From Pelagomonas calceolata (taxonomy: Eukaryota): a stretch of DNA of 64,000 nt. A model generated the notes under the pieces. That model was not told the origin of the DNA. It did no database searches and saw only the letters and a program-made list of their open reading frames with translations. The position numbers and the translations under genes were made by a program. Shown in pieces: positions 2,108 through 57,313 of this stretch (position 1 is the first letter of the stretch; every line of letters begins with the position of its first letter). The stretch lies in contig CAKKNE010000002.1 of the NCBI GenBank assembly GCA_918797485.1, positions 2,232,001 through 2,296,000 on the forward strand. The letters are read 5' to 3'.

Positions 2108-2774
2108 GGCTTGAGGTGCCCTCCGCCTCTCCTACGTGCCGCGAGCTCGCGTTTTTCGACGTATGCCGACCGTGAGGCAACAAAGAGCCCTCGGGCGCGC
2201 CGACCAGGACTTTGGCTCCGAGTTTGCAGTCCTTTGACTACTGCTATGAGCTCTCGCTGCCTTTGGCCTTTGTGTGCTACTGCAGGCGCGCGCCTCGTCC
2301 TGCCACGTCTCGGGGCCACAGACGCGTCGAGAGGGCTGCGAAGGTAGCCTTGCCTCGCCTGTTCATCCCGTCTCCTTGTTGCAGACTAGGGCCCCAGGCA
2401 GCCCCACTACAAGCGACGTTTGTCCTTTCTGGGGCGTTTTGGGCGTTTTGGACTTGGTGGGTGGCTTTTCGAGGTGCTCGGCTTTGAAACGGCCTATCAG
2501 ATCGCAACTCATCATCTCTCCAATCGCGGAGAGACACAAGTCTAATTTGCAATAGGTGTTTCACTGCACTGCGCCAGCGTAAGAATCGACTCGGCACGTC
2601 GAGAGTCATATCAACAACGCTCCACGACTGCAAAAACGCAAGCGCTGCGACGCGCGGCAACAAAAGTTGCATCTTAAGACCTCGAGAGGCAGCGGCAGCA
2701 CCAGGGCGCGGCGCGCGTGCATGCAGCGGCAGAGCGATGCGATCTCAGCCCGCGCCGCGCGCAGGCATAACAAG

Positions 2775-3959
2775 ATGAAGCTCGCCGTCGCCCTCGCCCT
2801 CGCCGGCGGCGCCGCGGCGCTCCGCCCCGCGGCCCGCGCGACCCGCGCCACCGTCCGCATGGGCGCCGAGCCCCTCAGCCAGCAGACGGGCAAGTACGCC
2901 ATGGACCAGGCCGTCCTCGACAAGTACGCGGCCCTGCCGCGCGACAAGATCCAGGCCGAGTACGTCTTCATCGACGCCGACTGCACGGCGCGCTCGAAGT
3001 GCCGCACGTTGGATGCGGCGCGCGTGAAGCAGGGCGTCGACCGCCTCCCGAAGTGGACCTACGACGGCTCGTCGACGGGCCAGGCGCCCGGCGACGACTC
3101 CGAGGTCATCATCGTGCCGCGCGCCGTCTACAAGGACCCCTTCCGCGGCGGCGACAACATCCTCGTGCTCTGCGACACTTACGACCCGGAGGGCAACCCG
3201 CTCCCGACGAACTCGCGCGCGCCGGCCGTGGCCAAGTTCGAGGCCGGCAACGCCGCCGCCGAGAAGCCGTGGTACGGCCTCGAGCAGGAGTACACGCTCT
3301 TCAACCTCGACGGCGTCACGCCGCTCGGCTGGCCCGTCGGCGGCTTCCCGAAGCCCCAGGGCCCCTACTACTGCGGCGCCGGCGCGGACAAGTCCTTCGG
3401 CCGCGCCGTCTCCGACGCGCACTACGCCGCCTGCCTCTACGCGGGCCTCGAGGTCTCGGGCACGAACGCCGAGGTCATGCCCGGCCAGTGGGAGTACCAG
3501 ATCGGCCCCTCCGTCGGCATCGACGCCGCCGACCAGCTCACGATCTCGCGCTACATTTTGGACCGCATCTGCGAGGACTTGGGTGTGATCGTGTCCATCG
3601 ACCCCAAGCCCATCAGCGGCGACTGGAACGGCGCGGGCTGCCACATGAACTTCTCGACCGAGTCCACGCGCAAGGCCGGCGGCCTCAAGACCATCGAGGA
3701 GATGTGCGAGAAGCTCGGCAAGAAGCACCAGGAGCATATCGCGGCCTACGGCGAGGGCAACGAGCGCCGCCTCACGGGCGACTGCGAGACGGCCGACATC
3801 AACACCTTCTCCTGGGGCGTCGCCGACCGCGGCTGCTCGATCCGCGTGCCGCGCGACACGGCCGCCGAGGGCTGCGGCTACCTCGAGGACCGCCGCCCGT
3901 CGTCGAACGTCGACCCGTACGTCGCGACGGCGCTGCTCTTCGAGACGTGCACGAACTAG
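2775..3959 (+). CDS. GLN2: Glutamine synthetase II with signal/transit-like N-terminus
   Basis: Motifs [43 protein letters not shown] and [11 protein letters not shown]. Confidence 0.95.
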
Positions 3960-4093
3960 GTCCGGGCCGCGCAGGAACCATACCCCGCCCCCTGAACATT
4001 TCTCCCGGCCCCTGTGGTGTGTGCGGCAGAATCGTGTCATTCTCTAAAACAGCAAACTGAAACTCCTTTGTTGGGAGTCCCACGTGGTCGGAT

Positions 4094-7000
4094 TCGACTG
4101 CGAACTCCTTATGAGCGCTGGGGGAGAGAAGGAAACGACACGCGGGGTAAGAGGACGATGTGGGGGTATCAATCAGTGCAGGGGGAACATGACGGCCCTG
4201 AAGAGGACCGTTCGGACCCGGAGGGGCGTGGAGCCCACGGGCCGGCCCGCCCGACGTGAGGTCGAGCGGGGAAGAAGAGCACGAACGAACTCGTCCAGGA
4301 CGTTCGCGCAGAGAGCTGGTCGGCCGCGCTCGCGGGCTGCGCGGCCGGGCGGTGCCACCGTCGTGGCACCTGCGTAGGTCGCGATGAGAAGCGATGGTAG
4401 AGTAGTGGGACGCCGGCGCCGCGCCGTCGTCGTCGTCAATCAGTCGTCGTTCGAGATTCGTCATATCTCGAACATCAGCGGGGGAAGAAGGGAAAAAGGG
4501 GGAGGGAAAACGTATTGGACGGTCGCGCCCTCAGCGTGCCGTCATGTACCACCAGGGGTGCTCGTCGTCCTCGAGCGCCTCCTTCGGCCTGTTATCATCG
4601 ACACCGTAAACTCACGAGACGCGTCGACGCTTCGACGATGACGACGACGGTGTCACGGCGGCGTCGTGATCATGACGACGCCATCTTCCCAAAGTTGAAG
4701 TTTCTGCGAGACGCTGACTCAGCGCGGGAACAAGAGCCCGACCGACACGAGGAACTTGTTGTTCCGCTTGATCTTGGCGCGCCGGCCGAGTTCGTACTCC
4801 GACAGCACGGGCTCGACGGGCGCGGCCTTGGTCTTGCGGCGCCGCTTCGGCCGCGGCGCCGGCGGCGCCTTGCGCTTGCGCGACGTCGGCTCCGGGTCCC
4901 GCATCGTGACGTCGTCGTCGGGATCGAAGTCCGGGTCGACCTCGTCGGCCTCCTCGTCGTCGGAGTCGGCGTCGTCCGCGACCGGTTCCTCCTCAGCGGC
5001 GCCGAGCGCGAAGCCGGGCCGCGCGCCCCGCGGGCCGCCGCCGCCCCGGCGCCGCGCGACGACGCCGGCAGCCACGGCGGACTCGAGGGCGCCCTGCTCC
5101 TCGCCGTCGTCGTCGCCTGTGTGGAAATCAACCAGTGTGTGGAATTTCTCGGCGATGACGTGGCCGCGGGAAGAGGCGCACGGAATCTAAAGCCCAGGAT
5201 GCGACGTCGTCCTCGGAGTCGGAGTCCGAGTCCAAGAGAGAGTCGACCGATTCATCATCAGACGAATCTCCCAACATAGTCTCGCGGCGCCGCGACGGGA
5301 AGTCCGCGGCGGCGTCGTCGTCGTCTAAAGCGTCGAACAGACCGCGAGGTAAGAGCAGCACGCCGTCCTCGGTCGCGGGCGCGCCGTCGCCGTCGAACTC
5401 GTCGGACATGGGCTGGAGTCGATTATCTTCGGCCGGCCGCGGCTCGACCAGCATCGGCGCCGCGCCGTTGTCGTCGTCGACGTCCATGTCGGCCTTGACC
5501 TCGGCCGGTTCCTCGAACCTGCGTGGGAACCAGTAAAGCGGCCGTTTTAGTCAAATTTGGCACCGACGCGAGACGTGATGGTCAGCTGCGTGCCGGGCGC
5601 CATCGTGGCAATGGCTCGTAAATGCAAACCCTTGGAGCCGTCGGAAGCCGTGTGGCGGACCACGACACAATTGGCCTCGCCGGGCGGCGCCCGTTTCTTC
5701 ACTAATTCTCTTCCGACCTACGTGTAGAAACGAGTGAGGCGGCCGTAAAATAAGAAATGGCCGTACCTTGCCCGACGGGAGGATCGTGACGATGCGGTCG
5801 CGTCGCACCGGCTCCCGCAGCATCAGGGCCTTGCCCCCGACGCTCCCGCCAGCTATCTCGACCTGCGCGCGTAGGTACGTCGAGTCCGAGTATTACGAGA
5901 ATCGCGCTGGCATCGACGGCGCAGGGCGTCATGACGACCACGGATCCGTTGGGTAGCCGCAACTTTTTCTGCCTGCGCGCGAGAACGTCTCGGACGGCCG
6001 ACGGAAGCAAGGACACCGGAAACGCGCTGCATGTCGAGCTGGGCGATGGCGAAAATGTTGCCCATGACGCGGACCGCCCGTTCGCCTGTTAAATAGTGTA
6101 AGCAACGATTCCATCATCGGACGCGGATCCGCGCCGTGGACGTGGCTTCCGAGCGCCGGCTTGGCAATGAGCTCAAACCGCAGCTCCGTGCCGACGCGGA
6201 CGAGCGGCGCGGATCGCTTCGGCGCCGTGCCACCAATCGTCTTCTGCCCCGTGTAGACGGGGTCGCGGTTCCGCGTCGAGCGCACCGGGCGCCGGCGCGC
6301 CGGCTGCGCGGGCTGGTCGGGCGCCGCCGCGCGGCCGCTCGACGGCGCCCAGTCCGTGGAGTCGTCCTCGTAGGCGCGTACCTTGTGCGCGGCGACCTCG
6401 GGCTCGGCGAGCGCGGGTCGCGTCGGCATGCGCTCGAAGAGCTCGCGCGACGTGACGGTGTCCTGCATCGCCTGCGACGTGCTGAGTCGATTTTGTATGG
6501 TCGAGGACGTCGCACCTTCTTGGCGAATTTCTCGAAGTCGAACCCTTCGCGCTTCAGCATCTCGCGGTCGAGCTCGAAAAACCGCGTCGGCAGGTTGCCG
6601 CCCTCGCCGAAGACGGGCGCCATGTCGTCCTTGCCTATGCGTTGAAACGTTGGAGCGGGCCGCCCGACGACGGCCGCGCCGGCTCGCGCATTTGACCAGT
6701 TGGAACTGCGCCTGGGCGTAGCGCATGCGCCAGGCGCGCGACTTGTAGGTAAACAACGACGTGCCGGCCTTGCGCCAGAAGGGCGTCGAGCCGTCTTCTC
6801 CCGTCCTGCGGGCGTCGGCCGAGTGAGGCGCGCGAGAAAAAGGCCCGCGGCGGCGCGGTGGCAAAAAACACCGATTCGAGTAGCGGACGCCGGTCCATGC
6901 GTCTGCGGAGGGGATTTAAGGCGTGAGAACGATGACGCGTCGAACGCGCGGTGACGGTGTGTTTTTGTGAAGGCGCCTGGCTCGAGGCGCGACGTCAAAA

Positions 7001-8303
7001 GGCTCTCACAAGTCTTGAAGAAGTCCGAAGGACGCAGGAGTAACACCGCTTCGAGGAACACGTGCGTAATTTGGAACTGCGTGCACCACGCGAGGAAGCA
7101 CCTGCGCGGAAGACGACCTCCACGCGATTCAGGAGGCGTAGATGCAAATTTGAAGGTCTTCAGTCGTTTAGTCATCGCATTACTCGATGATATCAAGTTT
7201 TCGGGTGAAGTGCACTGGTACACACCTGCGCGGACGTACCCTTCTGATTCGGAAGCTCGGCCGGTCGGATCCGACAAACGATGCCGAGAAGGGTCCCGTG
7301 CCCACCTAGAATCGAAGAGCAGCACACGAAAGGATCCTTGATCGCATGAACAGGTCCAGAAGGCAAAAGGTGGACGCCGAAAAAAGTACGCGACGAGCCG
7401 CGAGCCCGCCTGCAACGAGCCGCTCGAGCCCGCGCGCGAGCGGTAGGCCGGACTCGTGGCCACGGCGTGGCAGTAGACCGCGGTGTCTCTCCTGTGTTGA
7501 AAAGCGTAAATAGAGCCCGCCGCCGGCGCGAACGGGTCCCGACGCCGACGCGCTCACCACTCGAAGGAGATGACCGCGAGGACCTGCGCGAATCACAAAG
7601 TCACTTCCGCAGTCGATCATGGCTGCGACGGGACCGCACGCCCAGGACGTCGCTTTCGAGGCTCGCCTCCCAGAGCTGCGCGCGGGGGGCGCGGTCGACG
7701 GCGTCGCGCGCGAAGCGAATTTTCGGGCGCGCGCGCGCGCGCGCGCGCACTCTCGCAACGGCCACGCGCTGCGCGGCGCGCGGGCTCTCGCGGGGCGGGC
7801 GGGCGCCTTACCTCGGCGAAGGCGCCGCCCGCGCGCGACGTGACGACGTTAATCCAGTGGTCTTCGGCGTGGCCCGCGAACGCCTGCGCGGGGGCCGTGA
7901 GGCGGCGCGGTCGCGCCCGGTCCCGCGCGGGGCGGCGGGGCGAAATTCCGGGCCGCGCGGGCCAAACGCGGCGCGGTACGTCGGTCAGGATGTCGGCCAT
8001 GCCCCAGGCCCGGCCTTCGCTGCTGGGCCCCCGCTCCACCCGGAAGGTGCAGCCGGTCCAGTCGTCGCGCGCCTCGTTCTTGTGGTTGTTCTCGTCCGTC
8101 GCCATGGTCCTCTGCGCCGCGCTTGCGCCGTAGACGGCCGCCGCCCCAGATCGTTCTGCGCTCTGCGATTTTTTTGATTCGCAAAGGGGCCTCGCGCCCC
8201 CCGGCCGGGTCCGCGGCGCGGACGCGGCCCGGGAGGGCTCGGGGGCCTTGGGGGAGGCAATACTACGAAGTTCCTAGTCGCTGGAGGCGTCTGAGACCCG
8301 TCA
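4094..8303 (-). mobile_element. Dispersed repeat family, longest copy (A), carrying a spliced GNAT-like gene
   Basis: The left ~205 bp (TCGACTGCGAACTCC...) and right ~320 bp (...GACCCGTCA) are near-identical to three shorter copies elsewhere in the window. Confidence 0.8.
4719..8105 (-). CDS. Multi-exon gene inside element A: GNAT-like N-terminal domain, with a probable acidic/basic C-terminal region
   Basis: Phase-consistent GT-AG exons at 8105-7980, 7883-7812, 7675-7640, 7583-7558, 7491-7390, 7101-7045 and from 6805. They splice to ...ILTDAF...LWEASLESDVLGVLAVISFEWRDTAVYCHAVATSPAYRSRAG...RLVACFLAWCTQFQITHVFLEAVTGEDGSTPFWRKAG. Exons downstream of about 6750 are unresolved, and the 3' part may be a separate or decayed gene. 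Confidence 0.6.
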
Positions 8304-8386
8304 ACACGCCGCGCGCGCGACGGCACAAACCCTCTACTAAGTCACAGAGGAGATGCGCCACCCTTCGCTCAGCTAAGAAATCATAC

Positions 8387-9406
8387 TTATGCGTCGTCGC
8401 CGAGGACCTGCTCCCTCACAAACGCCGCGGCGTCGAACGCGTCGTCCTCGGACGCCGGCGCGTTCTTCTCGACCTGCTGCACGAGCTCCCGCAGGAACTC
8501 CGCGGACACGCGCTGGGAAAAGGACCCGTTCTCCTGCAGTAAAACGACGCGCTCGATCTGGGCCTGGACGATGGCCAGGACATTGCGCTTCTTCACGGCG
8601 CCGTCGCCGTTCAGCCGCTCGCTCAACAGCCGCGGCCACGCGTCGGCGTCGCCGGCGAGCAGCTCCTCGTAGAGGTCCGCGGCGGCGGCGTAGTCGGGGT
8701 GCAACGCCGGCGCGTCGCCGCTCAAATCGACCTTCTCCGCGGCGTCGGGCGGCATCATCTCCGCGAGCTGCTGCGCCGCGAGCGCCGCGTCGAAGCGCAG
8801 TACTCTCGAAGCGTAGAGCTGCAGCACTTTTCGCAGGATAGAAACCATCCCGTCCAACCCGTCGTCCTGGGCCTTCTTCGCCCAGGCGTCCACCGTCGAC
8901 AATGCGATTTCCCCCAACTCGCCGGCCTCCATCTTCGTCCAGACCGCTTTTTGCAGCGATGAGAACCGCTCCTCCGATAACGGTACCAAAAACTCGCCGT
9001 CGGGCTCGGCGCACGACGCGACGACCTCCTGCAAGATGGCGGACGAGTCGTCGATCTTTTGCTCCGCGGACTCGACGACGACCGTCAAAGTCTTCGCGAG
9101 GTTATCGGCCAACGCCGTGAGCTTCTCGCGTTCTTCCTCATCCGCATCGTCGCACAGCTCCGCAATGCGCAAAAAGAACTGCGGCCGGCCGACCTGCCTC
9201 AAAATGGTCTCTTGCCTTACTTTGGCCGGGAGGTTAAAGACCTCGGTGTCGGCCAACTCCTTGATGAGGGCATCCGTGCGGCCCTGGGCCAGGGCCGCCT
9301 CGGTCTCGGCTCGTAATAGAGTTGGTCGCCGCGCGGTCAGCGATGGCAGCTGCCATGCGGCGGCAGCAGCCATCAGCAAAAAGGCCAATCGCTGCATCCT
9401 GAGCAT
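8387..9406 (-). CDS. Uncharacterised, probably plastid-targeted alpha-helical protein
   Basis: 339-aa ORF with a signal-like N-terminus and coding-like codon usage. Confidence 0.75.
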   Translation of the reverse strand: MLRMQRLAFLLMAAAAAWQLPSLTARRPTLLRAETEAALAQGRTDALIKELADTEVFNLPAKVRQETILRQVGRPQFFLRIAELCDDADEEEREKLTALADNLAKTLTVVVESAEQKIDDSSAILQEVVASCAEPDGEFLVPLSEERFSSLQKAVWTKMEAGELGEIALSTVDAWAKKAQDDGLDGMVSILRKVLQLYASRVLRFDAALAAQQLAEMMPPDAAEKVDLSGDAPALHPDYAAAADLYEELLAGDADAWPRLLSERLNGDGAVKKRNVLAIVQAQIERVVLLQENGSFSQRVSAEFLRELVQQVEKNAPASEDDAFDAAAFVREQVLGDDA

Positions 9407-13926: not shown

Positions 13927-15213
13927 ATGCACCGCACAGCAGCCCGTTGCCTCACAACGCTCGCACGAGGCATGATCGACCTGCGTCGCGGCCACCCGCC
14001 CACCGCAGAGCTGCCGCACGCCGCCCTGGCCAAGGCCTGCGCGGCCGCGGCCACGGACCTGACCAGTAACGCCGAAGCAGGCCTCGCGATCCAGTACGGC
14101 GCGCCGCGCGGCTGCGCGAGCCACCTGGACACGCTGCAGCGGTGGCTCGAGCGCCGCTACGGGTCGATGGTGCGGCGCGACGGCCTCTTCACGACGAACG
14201 GCGCGTCGCACGGCCTAGAGCTCTGCGCGGCCGCGCTGACGGCACCGGGCGACGAGGTCGTGATGGAGGCGCCGACGTACTTTCTGGCCGCGCAAGTGTT
14301 CCGGGACCACGGGCTGTCGATTCGCTCGGCGCCCGTCGACGCGGGCGGCCTCGACGTAGATGCGCTCGAGCGGGCGCTCCGGGCGGGCACGTCGCGGCCG
14401 AAGGCTTTGTACGTCGTCCCGCGCCACGGCAACCCGTCGGGCGCGTCACTGGACAAAGATAGGCGCGCAAAGCTCGCGGCGCTCGCGCGCGAGTTCGGCT
14501 TCTACGTCTTCGCCGACGACGTGTACCACCTCCTCGACTGGTCCAGCGCTCCCTTGCGGCGGCTCCTCGAGTACGACGCGGCCTACGCCTCGGGCGAGTC
14601 GGCCGGCGGCGGCGACAGCTCGGATCCCGCCGCCGCCGCGGGGGGCGACACCGCGGCGCTCGCCATCCCCGACGACGCCCGCGTCGTGTCGATTTCGTCC
14701 TTCTCCAAGGTGCTCGCGCCGGGGCTGCGGTTGGGCTGGATTGAGGCCGCGCCGTCCATCGTCGCGGCGGTGGCGCGCAGGGGCTACGTGGTCTCGGGCG
14801 GCGGCTGCGCGCCCTTCACCGAGCAGATCGTCGCGCGCGTCTTGGAGAGCGGCGACGCGGACACGCATCTGGACGCGATGCGGCGGCGATGTCGGAGCCG
14901 CTGCGACGCGTTGCTCGGCGCGCTTGACGACGCAGCGGACGTCCTGCGGCCGCTCTGCCGACCCACCGGCGGCTTCTTCGTCTGGGTCGAGATCCTCGTC
15001 GAGGGCGTGACGGCGGCGCGACTGCGCGACGCCTGCGCGGAGGACGTGGCGTTCCTTGTCGGGGACGCCTGCGACTGCGATGGCCTTCCCATCGGCGACG
15101 TCGCACCAGCGTGTCTGGACCGGCACCTACGTTTGTGCTTCGCCATGCTTGATGAAAATGAGCTGGTCGAGGGCGTCGCGCGCATCGCGAGGCGTGCGCG
15201 CGAATTACGGTAA
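13927..15213 (+). CDS. PLP-dependent class I/II aminotransferase (2-aminoadipate transaminase-like)
   Basis: Motifs GNPSG, DDVY, SFSKVLAPGLRLGW and GGFFVW. Confidence 0.9.
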   Translation: MHRTAARCLTTLARGMIDLRRGHPPTAELPHAALAKACAAAATDLTSNAEAGLAIQYGAPRGCASHLDTLQRWLERRYGSMVRRDGLFTTNGASHGLELCAAALTAPGDEVVMEAPTYFLAAQVFRDHGLSIRSAPVDAGGLDVDALERALRAGTSRPKALYVVPRHGNPSGASLDKDRRAKLAALAREFGFYVFADDVYHLLDWSSAPLRRLLEYDAAYASGESAGGGDSSDPAAAAGGDTAALAIPDDARVVSISSFSKVLAPGLRLGWIEAAPSIVAAVARRGYVVSGGGCAPFTEQIVARVLESGDADTHLDAMRRRCRSRCDALLGALDDAADVLRPLCRPTGGFFVWVEILVEGVTAARLRDACAEDVAFLVGDACDCDGLPIGDVAPACLDRHLRLCFAMLDENELVEGVARIARRARELR

Positions 15214-15290
15214 TGAATGTGTGTCTAGGCGCGGGGAAGTAGGGCGCCCGCGGTCACGGGGGGGGGGGAGCCTAACCTATGTGTCACGAG

Positions 15291-31948: not shown

Positions 31949-33056
31949 TCGACTGCGAACTCCTTATGAGCGCTGGGGGAGAGAAGGAAACGACACGCGG
32001 GGTAAGAGGACGATGTGGGGGTAACAGTGCAGGGGGAACATGACGGCCCTGAAGAAGACCGTTCGGACCCGGAGGGGCGTGGAGCCCGCGGGCCGGCCCG
32101 CTTGACGTGAGGTCGAGCGGGGAAGAAGAGCACGAACGAACTCGTCCAGCCGCGAACCCGCCTGCAACGAGCCGCTCGAGCCCGCGCGCGAGCGGTAGGC
32201 CGGACTCGTGGCCACGGCGTGGCAGTAGACCGCGGTGTCTCTCCTGTGTTGAAAAGCGTAAATAAAGCCCGCCGCCGGTGCGAACGGGTCCCGGCGCCGA
32301 CGCGCTCACCACTCGAAGGAGATCACCGCGAGGACCTGCGCGAATCACGAAGTCACTTGCGCAGTCGATCATGGCTGCGCCGGGGCCGCACGCCCAGGAC
32401 GTCGCTTTCGAGGCTCGCCTCCCAGAGCTGCGCGCGGGGGGCGCGGTCGACGGCGTCGCGCGCGAAGCGAATTTTCGGGCGCGCGCGCGCGCGCGCGCAC
32501 TCTCGCAACGGCCACGCGCTGCGCGGCGCGCGGGCTCTCGCGGGGCGGGCGGGCGCCTTACCTCGGCGAAGGCGCCGCCCGCGCGCGACGTGACGACGTT
32601 AATCCAGTGGTCTTCGGCGTGGCCCGCGAACGCCTGCGCGGGGGCCGTGAGGCGGCGGCGCGGTCGCGCCCGGTCCCGCGCGGGGCGGCGGGGCGAAAAT
32701 CCGGGCCGCGCGGGCCAAACGCGGCGCGGTACGTCGGTCAGGATGTCGGCCATGCCCCAGGCCCGGCCTTCGCTGCTGGGCCCCCGCTCCACCCGGAAGG
32801 TGCAGCCGGTCCAGTCGTCGCGCGCCTCGTTCTTGTGGTTGTTCTCGTCCGTCGCCATGGTCCTCTGCGCCGCGCTTGCGCCGTAGACGGCCGCCGCCCC
32901 AGATCGTTCTGCGCTCTGCGATTTTTTTGATTCGCAAAGGGGCCTTGCGCCCCCCGGCCGGGTCCGCGGCGCGGGCGCGGCCCGGGAGGGCTCGGGGGCC
33001 TTGGGGGAGGTACTACTACGGAATTCCTACTCGCTGGAGGCGTCGGGGACCCGTCA
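31949..33056 (-). mobile_element. Repeat family copy C (left end fused to the right ~900 bp of copy A)
   Basis: Matches 4094-4299 and then 7396-8303; retains exons 1-5 of the GNAT-like gene. Confidence 0.9.
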
Positions 33057-33121
33057 CGCGCGGGCGCGCGGGTGGGACGCCTCGGCGCCTTGGGGCCGCT
33101 GCAAGTACACCTAACATCACA

Positions 33122-56520: not shown

Positions 56521-57232
56521 TCGACTGCGAACTCCTTATGAGCGCTGGGGAGAGAGGAAACGACACGCGGGGTAAGAGGACGATGTGGGGGTGAACAGTG
56601 CAGGAGGAACATGACGGCCCTGAAGAAGACCGTTCGGACCCGGAGGGGCGTGGAGCCCACGGGCCGGCCCGCCCGACGTGAGGTCGAGCTGGGGAAGGAG
56701 AGCACGAACGAACTCGTCCATCGGTCGGCTCGGCCGCGAGGAAGATCGCGAGCGCCTCCGTCTGCGCGGCCGGGGCCGTCGGGTCCCGCACGACCGGTTG
56801 CCGCGGCCGCGCTCGTGAGCACGTGTGAACGACGCTATGATTTCCGCGGCGCTGCTCTTGGCAGCACGCGACGCACGTCGGCTCGAACGGGAGCGGCGCG
56901 CGCGCTACGTCGGTCAGGATGTCGGCCATGCCCCAGGCCCGGCCTTCGCTGCTGGGCCCCCGCTCCACCCGGAAGGTGCAGCCGGTCCAGTCGTCGCGCG
57001 CCTCGTTCTTGTGGTTGTTCTCGTCCGTCGCCATGGTCCTCTGCGCCGCGCTTGCGCCGTAGACGGCCGCCGCCCCAGATCGTTCTGCGCTCTGCGATTT
57101 TTTTGATTCGCAAAGGGGCCTGGCGCCCCCCGGCCGGGTCCGCGGCGCGGGCGCGGCCCGGGAGGGCTCGGGGGCCTTGGGGGAGGCAATACTACGAAGT
57201 TTCTAGTCGCCGGAGGCGTCGGGGACCCGTCA
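56521..57232 (-). mobile_element. Repeat family copy D
   Basis: Both terminal blocks, plus about 185 bp of internal sequence not seen in copy A. Confidence 0.85.
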
Positions 57233-57313
57233 ACGCGCACGCGCGGGCGGCGGCCCCAAACCCATTACACGGCTCCATCGCCGCGACAGACGTCCGGCGC
57301 GCCAGGAAACAAA

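What the first reader, a model, noticed from the sequence alone, without database searches (positions are those of the whole stretch)
4094..8303. Mobile-element family whose longest copy hides a micro-exon GNAT acetyltransferase-like gene and has no visible transposase
Seen: six short GT-AG exons (126, 72, 36, 26, 102 and 57 nt) plus a seventh starting at 6805 join in consistent phase. The six-frame track does not show this protein. Established: the order of elements matches the GNAT fold, with a helix (ILTDAF), strands (LWEASLESDVLGVLAV), a motif A-like segment (VYCHAVATSPAYRSRAG), a helix and strand (FLAWC...HVFLEA) and a motif B-like segment (PFWRKAG). Inference: a transposon-borne acetyltransferase could be a chromatin anti-silencing or accessory factor. 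I can see no DDE, HUH, tyrosine recombinase, RT or TnpB ORF, and no TIR or TSD, so the element class is unassigned.
Basis: partly seen in the sequence, partly recalled or inferred. Interest (0 to 1): 0.88.

Follow-up and report, generated by a model that had tools for sequence, protein, structure and literature searches.

The report
Algal transposon-like family carrying chromatin acetyltransferase
A repeat family in a marine alga carries a conserved, intron-packed gene for a predicted acetyltransferase with likely chromatin-binding parts; it is probably a copy-and-paste DNA transposon that would use this protein to escape silencing, but its jumping enzyme has not been seen.

Summary
Four same-strand copies share both ends; eight more flanking contexts occur in marine metagenomes. 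The seven exons are real, and the gene runs on to 14 exons and 577 codons without a stop. Stored proteins read through 12 of 13 joins. Against a diverged copy the GNAT-side exons show 21 synonymous and 0 amino-acid changes. Pfam (E 0.012, below cutoff) and fold searches point weakly but consistently to a GNAT fold. Two corrections: the protein also has a SET-like stretch, and the 'longest copy' is itself deleted at about 5170. Longer relatives add a cysteine/histidine motif and a DUF7028 (likely MBD-like) domain, then run off their contigs, so 'no transposase' is not established. No TIR, TSD or Helitron end was found. The end downstream of the gene carries 27-128 nt of flank shared between copies, as in Replitron-1, and all four window copies sit between convergent genes. 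No empty site was seen. Best reading: an old copy-and-paste (HUH-like) transposon with a chromatin accessory protein; class unassigned.

The parts
4094..8330 (-). Copy 1 of the family (longest in the window, itself internally deleted at about 5170); right boundary fuzzy, about 8303-8331
4094..4297 (-). 3' terminal unit shared by all copies; sharp core end at 4094; 4297 is a recurring deletion breakpoint
   Evidence: (5c)
8106..8330 (-). 5' terminal region with the presumed promoter; 96-98% identical in all four copies up to 8303, looser beyond
7980..8105 (-). Exon 1 (ATG at 8105)
   Evidence: join 1/2 in P0040
7812..7883 (-). Exon 2
   Evidence: join 2/3 not seen read through
7640..7675 (-). 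Exon 3 (GNAT strand)
   Evidence: join 3/4 in 9 stored proteins
7558..7583 (-). Exon 4 (GNAT strand)
   Evidence: join 4/5 in 15 stored proteins
7390..7491 (-). Exon 5 (motif A-like segment)
   Evidence: join 5/6 in 8 stored proteins
7045..7101 (-). Exon 6 (helix and strand)
   Evidence: join 6/7 in 12 stored proteins and contiguous in L012
6690..6805 (-). Exon 7 (motif B-like segment); GC donor
   Evidence: join 7/8 in 10 stored proteins
6516..6634 (-). Exon 8 (end of the GNAT-like domain)
   Evidence: join 8/9 in 7 stored proteins
6135..6471 (-). Exon 9 (linker, start of a beta-rich stretch); GC donor; the intron 6134-6086 is skipped in a poly(A) RNA contig
   Evidence: (5c, X17), P0005
5918..6085 (-). 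Exons 10 (6085-6028, GC donor) and 11 (5972-5918): beta-rich stretch, Tudor/KOW-like by eye only
   Evidence: P0005, P0204; no Pfam or PDB hit
5575..5862 (-). Exons 12 (5862-5767) and 13 (5717-5575): short SET-like stretch, Phe at the position of the catalytic Tyr (by eye)
   Evidence: Pfam SET E 0.24-0.27; joins in P0163, P0200, P0204
5170..5518 (-). Exon 14, acidic; broken at about 5170 by the internal deletion
   Evidence: P0204 aligns down to 5170
5117..5170 (-). 3' remnant of a host introner-type intron, left at the deletion joint; unspliced reading stops at 5128
   Evidence: (family D20)
4726..5116 (-). Downstream acidic/basic exon, cut off from the frame in this copy by the deletion
   Evidence: L002; P0026; RNA contig X17 record 17 stops aligning at 4726
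4530..4588 (-). Last coding exon with a Trp-rich C-terminal motif and stop
   Evidence: P0021, P0026, P0070, P0173
15291..15853 (-). Copy 2: both ends only, 13-nt filler at the joint
31949..33070 (-). Copy 3: 3' unit plus exons 1-5 with their introns
56521..57263 (-). Copy 4: both ends plus a ~180-nt piece (56722-56900) from the part of the longer gene that copy 1 has lost
2721..3959 (+). Host glutamine synthetase gene; poly(A) at 4062, 32 nt before the element
   Evidence: table 7, X17
8387..9406 (-). Host gene converging on the element; poly(A) at 8374
   Evidence: table 7, X17

Best explanation
This is a dispersed repeat family of a pelagophyte alga whose long copies carry a conserved, intron-rich gene for a predicted GNAT acetyltransferase joined to likely chromatin-binding domains, and it is likely an old copy-and-paste DNA transposon of rolling-circle (HUH) type whose four window copies are all internally deleted. 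Shown: shared ends at 12 flanking contexts, the exon structure, purifying selection, and a longer version of the gene. Inferred mechanism: a Rep/HUH enzyme, encoded in the unseen part of the full-length element or supplied in trans, would copy the unit from its 5' end and terminate loosely beyond the 3' end. That would carry 27-128 nt of donor flank to the new site and leave no TIR or TSD. Copies would survive mainly between convergent genes. The protein would bind (possibly methylated) DNA through the DUF7028/MBD-like part and acetylate histones through the GNAT part, keeping the element transcribed, much as IDM1 does for plant host loci and VANC does by another route for VANDAL elements.
For: Core end TCGACTGCG is sharp at 18 of 18 loci seen (14 metagenome loci, 4 window copies), which fall into 12 distinct upstream contexts. 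Six of 66 context pairs share 27-128 nt beyond the core end, with scores 25-196 against a shuffled maximum of 10; c2 and c3 in the window itself share about 33 nt. This end lies downstream of the gene, the same polarity as the fuzzy right end of Replitron-1 (PMC10288648 section 9), and Replitron transcripts are listed for Pelagophyceae. No TIR, TSD or RT-type signs; introns are kept in copy 3. The frame is open over 14 exons and 12 of 13 joins are read through. Codon changes against L012: 21 synonymous and 0 non-synonymous in exons 6 to the start of 9, then 8 and 4 in the linker. GNAT: Pfam E 0.012; top Foldseek and VIA rows are acetyltransferases. DUF7028 in 3 of 3 long variants, best E 1.7e-4. 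Relatives at 38% and 56% identity show an old family.
Against: No Rep, helicase or other mobilising enzyme was seen in any DNA or protein held. The Replitron direct terminal repeat and the Helitron A|T target, hairpin and CTRR end were tested and not found. No empty site was listed in 8 runs (one search hid 31 joints; one search listed one joint, not an empty site), and all four window sites are occupied in wild samples, so recent mobility is not shown. All domain hits are below the curated cutoffs; the GNAT model has mean pLDDT 41.5 and best Z 6.5; the SET model was unusable. Motif A has an insertion against the usual R/Q-x-x-G-x-G/A pattern (pattern recalled). RNA runs X15 and X16 held unspliced DNA-like contigs, and X17 had one contig unspliced across 7093-7287.
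Confidence: 0.45

Rival explanations
1. A mobile element of another or undescribed class (tyrosine-recombinase, Penelope-like, degenerate Mutator-like or new), with its mobilising enzyme fused or linked in the part that all copies seen here have lost.
For: The long variants P0181 and P0204 continue past the DUF7028 domain and leave the frame at an apparent intron near their contig ends, so coding sequence of unknown length is unseen. Penelope-like elements keep introns and carry 30-40 bp tails (PMC8557442 passages). No defining end motif of any HUH group was met.
Against: No pseudo-LTR, tandem partial copy or 5' truncation in 4 of 4 window copies; no TIR or TSD; no terminal direct repeat of 5 nt or more common to all four copies.
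Confidence: 0.27
2. Not a transposon: a host chromatin-regulator gene that was duplicated as a promoter-to-terminator cassette by break repair and now evolves by ectopic conversion and deletion, with one working master copy.
For: Strong purifying selection; fixed sites in wild samples and no empty site; only some 4-7 copies per genome by contig depth (rough), four of them within 53 kb; marker variants of the 3' unit are mixed between loci; the domain mix resembles host proteins such as IDM1.
Against: One base-exact core end at 12 unrelated contexts, with nested flank carry-over, is hard to get from random duplication. The host's annotated protein set did not return this protein (no named hit). 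Up to 13 distinct internal deletions keep both ends, as non-autonomous elements do.
Confidence: 0.2
3. The element is a transposon, but the GNAT and SET-like parts are catalytically dead scaffolds or act on a non-histone target (for example a toxin-antidote or transposase-modifying role).
For: Motif A is atypical; the SET-like stretch lacks the usual catalytic Tyr by eye; fold hits include ribosomal-protein, polyamine and antibiotic acetyltransferases at scores tied with the histone enzymes.
Against: The GNAT exons are the most conserved part (0 amino-acid changes against 21 silent ones); the neighbouring domains are of chromatin type; the top VIA row is the KKT23 histone acetyltransferase-like domain.
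Confidence: 0.08

Closest known systems
Replitrons (Replitron-1 and Replitron-N1 of Chlamydomonas; PMC10288648, section 9 and passages read)
   Same: Copy-and-paste pattern without TIRs; the end downstream of the gene carries variable flank from the parent copy; intron-containing gene; deleted derivatives; group reported in Pelagophyceae.
   Different: No short direct terminal repeat common to the copies, no variable TSD, no Rep HUH domain seen; carries a GNAT/SET-like/DUF7028 protein; its end motif is absent from that paper's seven supplementary files.
Helitrons HLE1 and HLE2 (PMC11417382, passages read)
   Same: No TSD; one end begins with TC; accessory domains and internally deleted copies.
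   Different: The base before TC is A in 1 of 18 loci; no significant end hairpin, no CTRR, no short TIR; no RepHel seen; flank carry-over is at the TC end.
VANDAL elements with VANC anti-silencing protein (PMC5735166, abstract read)
   Same: A transposon that would carry its own anti-silencing factor.
   Different: VANC is not an acetyltransferase; VANDALs are Mutator-like with a DDE transposase and TSD (recalled); no tandem target repeats were looked for or seen here.
Arabidopsis IDM1 histone acetyltransferase (PMC4416881, passages read; PMC5339849, listing and start of abstract)
   Same: GNAT-type acetyltransferase plus an MBD domain acting against silencing. That DUF7028 is the IDM1-type MBD-like domain is recalled, not checked (no paper held the term).
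   Different: IDM1 is a single-copy host gene with a PHD finger (recalled); here the GNAT is N-terminal, there is a SET-like stretch, no PHD hit, and the gene lies in a repeat family.
KKT23 and Gcn5 acetyltransferase domains (PDB 9evq, 5trm, 1qst)
   Same: Best or near-best fold matches to the predicted GNAT core.
   Different: About 15% identity, Z 6.5, rmsd 4.6; bacterial GNATs score within 1-2 Z units, so the subfamily is not resolved.

Membership tests
GNAT superfamily | Three antiparallel strands, long helix, parallel strand, short helix (core topology) | tested here: met
   Model of P0040: E94-100, E104-114, E117-123, H138-155, E160-165, H173-176 (pLDDT about 45-70 there); top fold hits are acetyltransferases.
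GNAT superfamily | Pfam Acetyltransf_1 above gathering score | tested here: inconclusive
   16.4 bits against a cutoff of 20.7, E 0.012, profile 28-115 of 116 on P0040; 3 of 17 proteins scanned hit it.
GNAT superfamily | Motif A acetyl-CoA loop (R/Q-x-x-G-x-G/A, recalled) | tested here: inconclusive
   Arg and Gly residues are in place but with an insertion of about 6 residues; the 38% relative P0079 has a shorter loop.
GNAT superfamily | Acetyl-CoA-dependent transfer | not testable with these tools
   Needs an enzyme assay.
SET domain | Pfam SET match or SET fold | tested here: inconclusive
   E 0.24-0.27, 12 bits against 22.4, C-terminal third only; no PDB sequence hit; model pLDDT 42.8, fold search meaningless.
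SET domain | NHS motif and catalytic Tyr of the C-terminal motif (recalled) | tested here: not met
   By eye: no His-Ser, and Phe at the Tyr position in P0162, P0163, P0200, P0204. An active methyltransferase is unlikely.
Replitron | Rep HUH transposase | tested here: inconclusive
   None in the window copy or in stored proteins; part of the full-length element is unseen.
Replitron | Short direct terminal repeats | tested here: not met
   No 5-, 6- or 7-mer common to both ends of all 4 copies within about 50 nt of the ends.
Replitron | Fuzzy end downstream of the gene, derived from the parent's flank (Replitron-1 only) | tested here: met
   6 of 66 context pairs share 27-128 nt past the core end, above the shuffled maximum.
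Replitron | 5' end inserted after RG (Replitron-1 only) | tested here: inconclusive
   Fits copies 1, 2 and 4 if the boundary is set at 8329, but the G may belong to the element and copy 3 lacks that end motif.
Helitron HLE1 | 5' TC inserted after A | tested here: not met
   TC is present at 18 of 18 loci, preceded by A in 1 of 18.
Helitron HLE1 | 3' hairpin followed by CTRR | tested here: not met
   End folds have z between -0.36 and 0.68 in 6 of 6 tests; no shared CTRR after the right end.
Helitron HLE1/HLE2 | RepHel transposase | tested here: inconclusive
   Not in the sequence held; missing part unseen.
TIR (DDE) DNA transposons and HLE2 | Terminal inverted repeats | tested here: not met
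   No inverted 5-mer common to both ends in all 4 copies; longest inverted match in copy 1 is an internal 9-mer.
TIR (DDE) DNA transposons | Target-site duplication | tested here: not met
   No direct match of 5 nt or more across the flanks of copies 1 and 2; only chance-level 5-6-mers in copies 3 and 4. Old sites may have decayed.
Penelope-like (Chlamys/Naiad) | Pseudo-LTRs, partial tandems, frequent 5' truncation | tested here: not met
   0 of 4 window copies show them; all keep the 5' end.
Penelope-like (Chlamys/Naiad) | RT with GIY-YIG endonuclease | tested here: inconclusive
   Not in the sequence held; missing part unseen.
Any active transposon | Presence/absence polymorphism (empty sites) | tested here: inconclusive
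   None listed for copy 1 in 4 runs (31 joints hidden) or for copy 2 in 4 runs; contigs show presence, not absence.

The most novel reading that the evidence does not exclude
An undescribed group of eukaryotic mobile elements whose main product is a large chromatin writer-reader protein (GNAT, SET-like, zinc-finger-like, MBD-like), which inserts specifically where convergent transcripts end, keeps its own chromatin open by histone acetylation, and moves by an enzyme not yet known from any transposon class.
Probability: 0.17. Interest if true: 0.88.

Novelty: new variant of a known kind. Interest (0 to 1): 0.63.

Why it matters
Transposon-encoded anti-silencing factors are known from few systems, mainly plant VANC. 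A histone acetyltransferase with a methyl-DNA-binding partner carried by an element would be a direct enzymatic counter to host silencing, and would parallel the plant host protein IDM1. My ten literature searches found no element with this protein (searches are the ones aimed at it). The host is an abundant, culturable marine alga with a small genome, so the question is testable: one long-read copy settles the class, and one assay settles the enzyme. The gene also has at least 14 introns, and intron positions differ between copies, in a lineage reported to average 0.45 introns per gene (PMC9481584 passages, for Pelagomonas calceolata). That makes it a useful record of intron gain.

Tried and rejected
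No whole genome was held, so genome-wide mapping of ends was not possible. Pfam on single exon frames gave only weak SET and YL1 hits among 13 frames. PDB sequence searches gave nothing relevant: PUF60, MarR, calmodulin and a lectin at E 0.3-1, taken as chance. NCBIfam: 1 weak hit in 8 proteins. No Rfam family, including hammerhead ribozymes, in 4000-8450. No relatives in viral contigs or prokaryote genomes. The protein Atlas gave no answer. The SET-region model was too poor to use. End hairpins looked Helitron-like by eye but fold no better than shuffles. A solo-LTR reading of the 4094-4297 unit (TG...CA) was dropped: the upstream TG is not fixed across 12 contexts, and breakpoints also occur at about 4157-4280 and 4316-4596. 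The recurring 4297 breakpoint may be shared descent, since c2, c4 and L013 share a marker insertion. Extra micro-exons inside introns 5 and 6 were considered and dropped, because stored proteins join 5/6 and 6/7 directly. The out-of-frame tails of P0181 and P0204 cannot be decoded from protein alone. Four look-ups in earlier findings returned nothing. Supplements of the host genome paper were not read and may list this repeat among its ab initio families; bioRxiv supplements are closed.
Full report
Setting. The window is gene-dense and about 66% G+C. Its proteins lie on a 6.14 Mb contig and cluster with a Pelagophyceae transcript. Host introns end in a repeated introner-type motif (family D20). 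I infer Pelagomonas calceolata or a near relative. No whole genome was held.

The repeat family. A self-search finds four copies on the same strand that share both ends at 92-98% identity: c1 4094-~8330, c2 15291-~15853, c3 31949-~33070 and c4 56521-~57263. A 28-nt pattern from the left end hit 14 metagenome loci. With the window copies these make 18 loci in 12 distinct upstream contexts, 8 of them outside the window; the core end TCGACTGCG is base-exact in all 18. The right end is looser: identity falls after 8303, a motif about 25 nt further out is kept in c1, c2 and c4, and run X7 has loose ends at the matching place. Contig depth suggests some 4-7 copies per genome (3776 against 529 in X3; 18.8 against 2.6-4.8 in X4; 166 against 26 in X16); the tool warns that depth is no copy number. 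Twenty of 24 listed runs, from 12 studies, hold the stretch or part of it.

The gene. The frame continues through exon 14, giving 577 codons with no internal stop; introns are 44-288 nt, ten GT-AG and three GC-AG. Stored proteins from metagenome and transcriptome assemblies read through 12 of 13 joins, with 1-15 proteins per join at up to two mismatches; join 2/3 has none, and P0040 keeps that intron in frame. These proteins may come from spliced RNA or from copies without the intron. L012 shows the second case: exons 6 and 7 are contiguous in DNA, and it has three introns at other places. Direct RNA evidence is thin. One poly(A) run skips 6134-6086 and has a contig that stops aligning at the donor 4726; two other RNA runs held unspliced contigs, and the poly(A) run also had one across 7093-7287. 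Selection is clear: c1 against L012 gives 21 synonymous and 0 non-synonymous codon changes over exon 6 to the start of exon 9, and 8 against 4 in the linker; c1 against c3 gives 2 and 0.

The protein. Pfam Acetyltransf_1 matches P0040 at E 0.012 and P0020/P0021 at E 0.05-0.06, below the cutoff. An AlphaFold model of P0040 on 13 sequences is poor overall (mean pLDDT 41.5) but gives the GNAT order of strands and helices in its better part. Foldseek found no match at E 0.001 or better; its first rows are GNAT PA2578, RimI, Gcn5, KKT23 and SpeG (best E 0.019). VIA's best is the KKT23 acetyltransferase domain (Z 6.5, rmsd 4.6, 144 aligned), and 49 of 50 rows are GNAT-fold or acetyltransferase proteins by title or by my recall of the families; Z under 8 may mean only a common arrangement. 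The consistency across three methods makes the fold likely, but not the substrate. Downstream lie a beta-rich stretch (Tudor/KOW-like by eye, no hit), a short SET-like stretch (E 0.24-0.27, catalytic Tyr missing by eye; model unusable) and an acidic region. The HMMER scan of representatives gave 42 hits, almost all this family, plus relatives at 38% (P0079) and 56% (P0072) and one repeat protein taken as chance.

The longest copy is not full length. P0178, P0181 and P0204 continue past the point where c1 breaks (about 5170) into more acidic sequence, a CxxC...HTC motif and a domain that matches DUF7028 (3 of 3, best E 1.7e-4, below the cutoff of 27 bits). The unique 180 nt of c4 come from this lost part. 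Both long proteins leave the frame at an apparent intron near their contig ends, so an unknown length of coding sequence, where a mobilising enzyme could lie, was not seen. In c1 the deletion joins exon 14 to the 3' half of an introner, and unspliced reading stops at 5128. A crude filter flagged 16 of 131 stored proteins as joining distant parts; after removing one that is only spliced and merging two pairs, up to 13 distinct deletions remain. Some may be assembly chimeras.

Ends and sites. There is no TIR, no TSD, no terminal direct repeat common to the copies and no significant end hairpin. Beyond the sharp end, which lies downstream of the gene, 6 of 66 context pairs share 27-128 further bases (scores 25-196, shuffled maximum 10): L004/L008, c2/c3/L014, L006/L011 and c4/L007. 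Replitron-1 shows the same polarity of flank carry-over, though its author calls this non-canonical (PMC10288648 section 9). All four window copies sit between convergent genes. By my rough census 11 of about 29 gene junctions in the window are convergent, which gives p about 0.014; poly(A) sites of both neighbours of c1 lie within 32-45 nt of the element. This may be targeting or survival. The sites of c1, c3 and c4 recur in wild loci with other interiors and other marker variants (L002, L013, L012), and c2 is occupied in the four runs laid. This points to old insertions with later deletion and exchange between loci, but short-read chimeras through the shared 200-nt end cannot be excluded. 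No empty site was listed.

Mechanism. Shown: family, ends, exons, selection, longer version. Inferred: copy-and-paste movement by a rolling-circle (HUH) enzyme with loose termination, about 0.45; another or new class about 0.27; a duplicated host gene about 0.2. Inferred further: the protein binds DNA or chromatin and acetylates histones to keep the element active. IDM1 is the functional model (acetyltransferase with an MBD domain, PMC4416881 passages), and VANC is the precedent for a transposon-borne anti-silencer (PMC5735166 abstract).

Known or new. It fails the end tests for Helitrons, TIR elements and Penelope-like elements and the direct-repeat test for Replitrons, so I file it in no family. 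It works most like Replitron-1 at its ends. Searches for such an element or protein in the paper library found none; subscription journals and most supplements were not searched. Verdict: a real, well-supported and apparently undescribed element-gene combination, with class and enzyme activity open. Interest 0.63.

Noticed in passing
window 6220-6250 (exon 9, minus strand): A ten-residue stretch resembles the histone H3 tail around K9-K18 (H3 sequence recalled). It varies between copies (P0007-P0009 differ), so a histone mimic is only a hint.
   Followed up: no
window 4297/4298: Copies 2, 3 and 4, wild locus L013 and an RNA contig of X17 all break at this same base; several joints show 2-7 nt microhomology or filler. 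Shared descent or a fragile site.
   Followed up: partly
L012 whole; P0010, P0038, P0168, P0185, P0186: Intron positions differ between copies of the gene, and some inserts are introner-type, in either orientation. The gene is a hotspot of intron gain.
   Followed up: partly
window 10574/10619, 24396/24405, 37479/37481, 44766/44793, 47362/47403, 52039/52075: Convergent host gene pairs without the element are only 2-45 nt apart stop to stop, so their 3' UTRs must overlap; gaps with the element keep 87-192 nt of other DNA.
   Followed up: partly
window 4063-4081: An 18-nt palindromic insert just left of copy 1 is absent from wild loci L002 and L003 and starts at the poly(A) site of the glutamine synthetase gene.
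   Followed up: no
window 15200-15288: Run X7 has an allele in which 87 nt between the upstream gene's end and copy 2 are replaced by 29 other letters.
   Followed up: no
window 26701, 27546, 43817, 46844: Host introns share a 32-nt 3' motif (family D20), typical of pelagophyte introner elements (recalled); the remnant at 5117-5170 belongs to it.
   Followed up: partly
P0079, P0072, P0185: Diverged relatives (38%, 56%, 61% identity) suggest sister families in other pelagophytes; their DNA could not be fetched.
   Followed up: no
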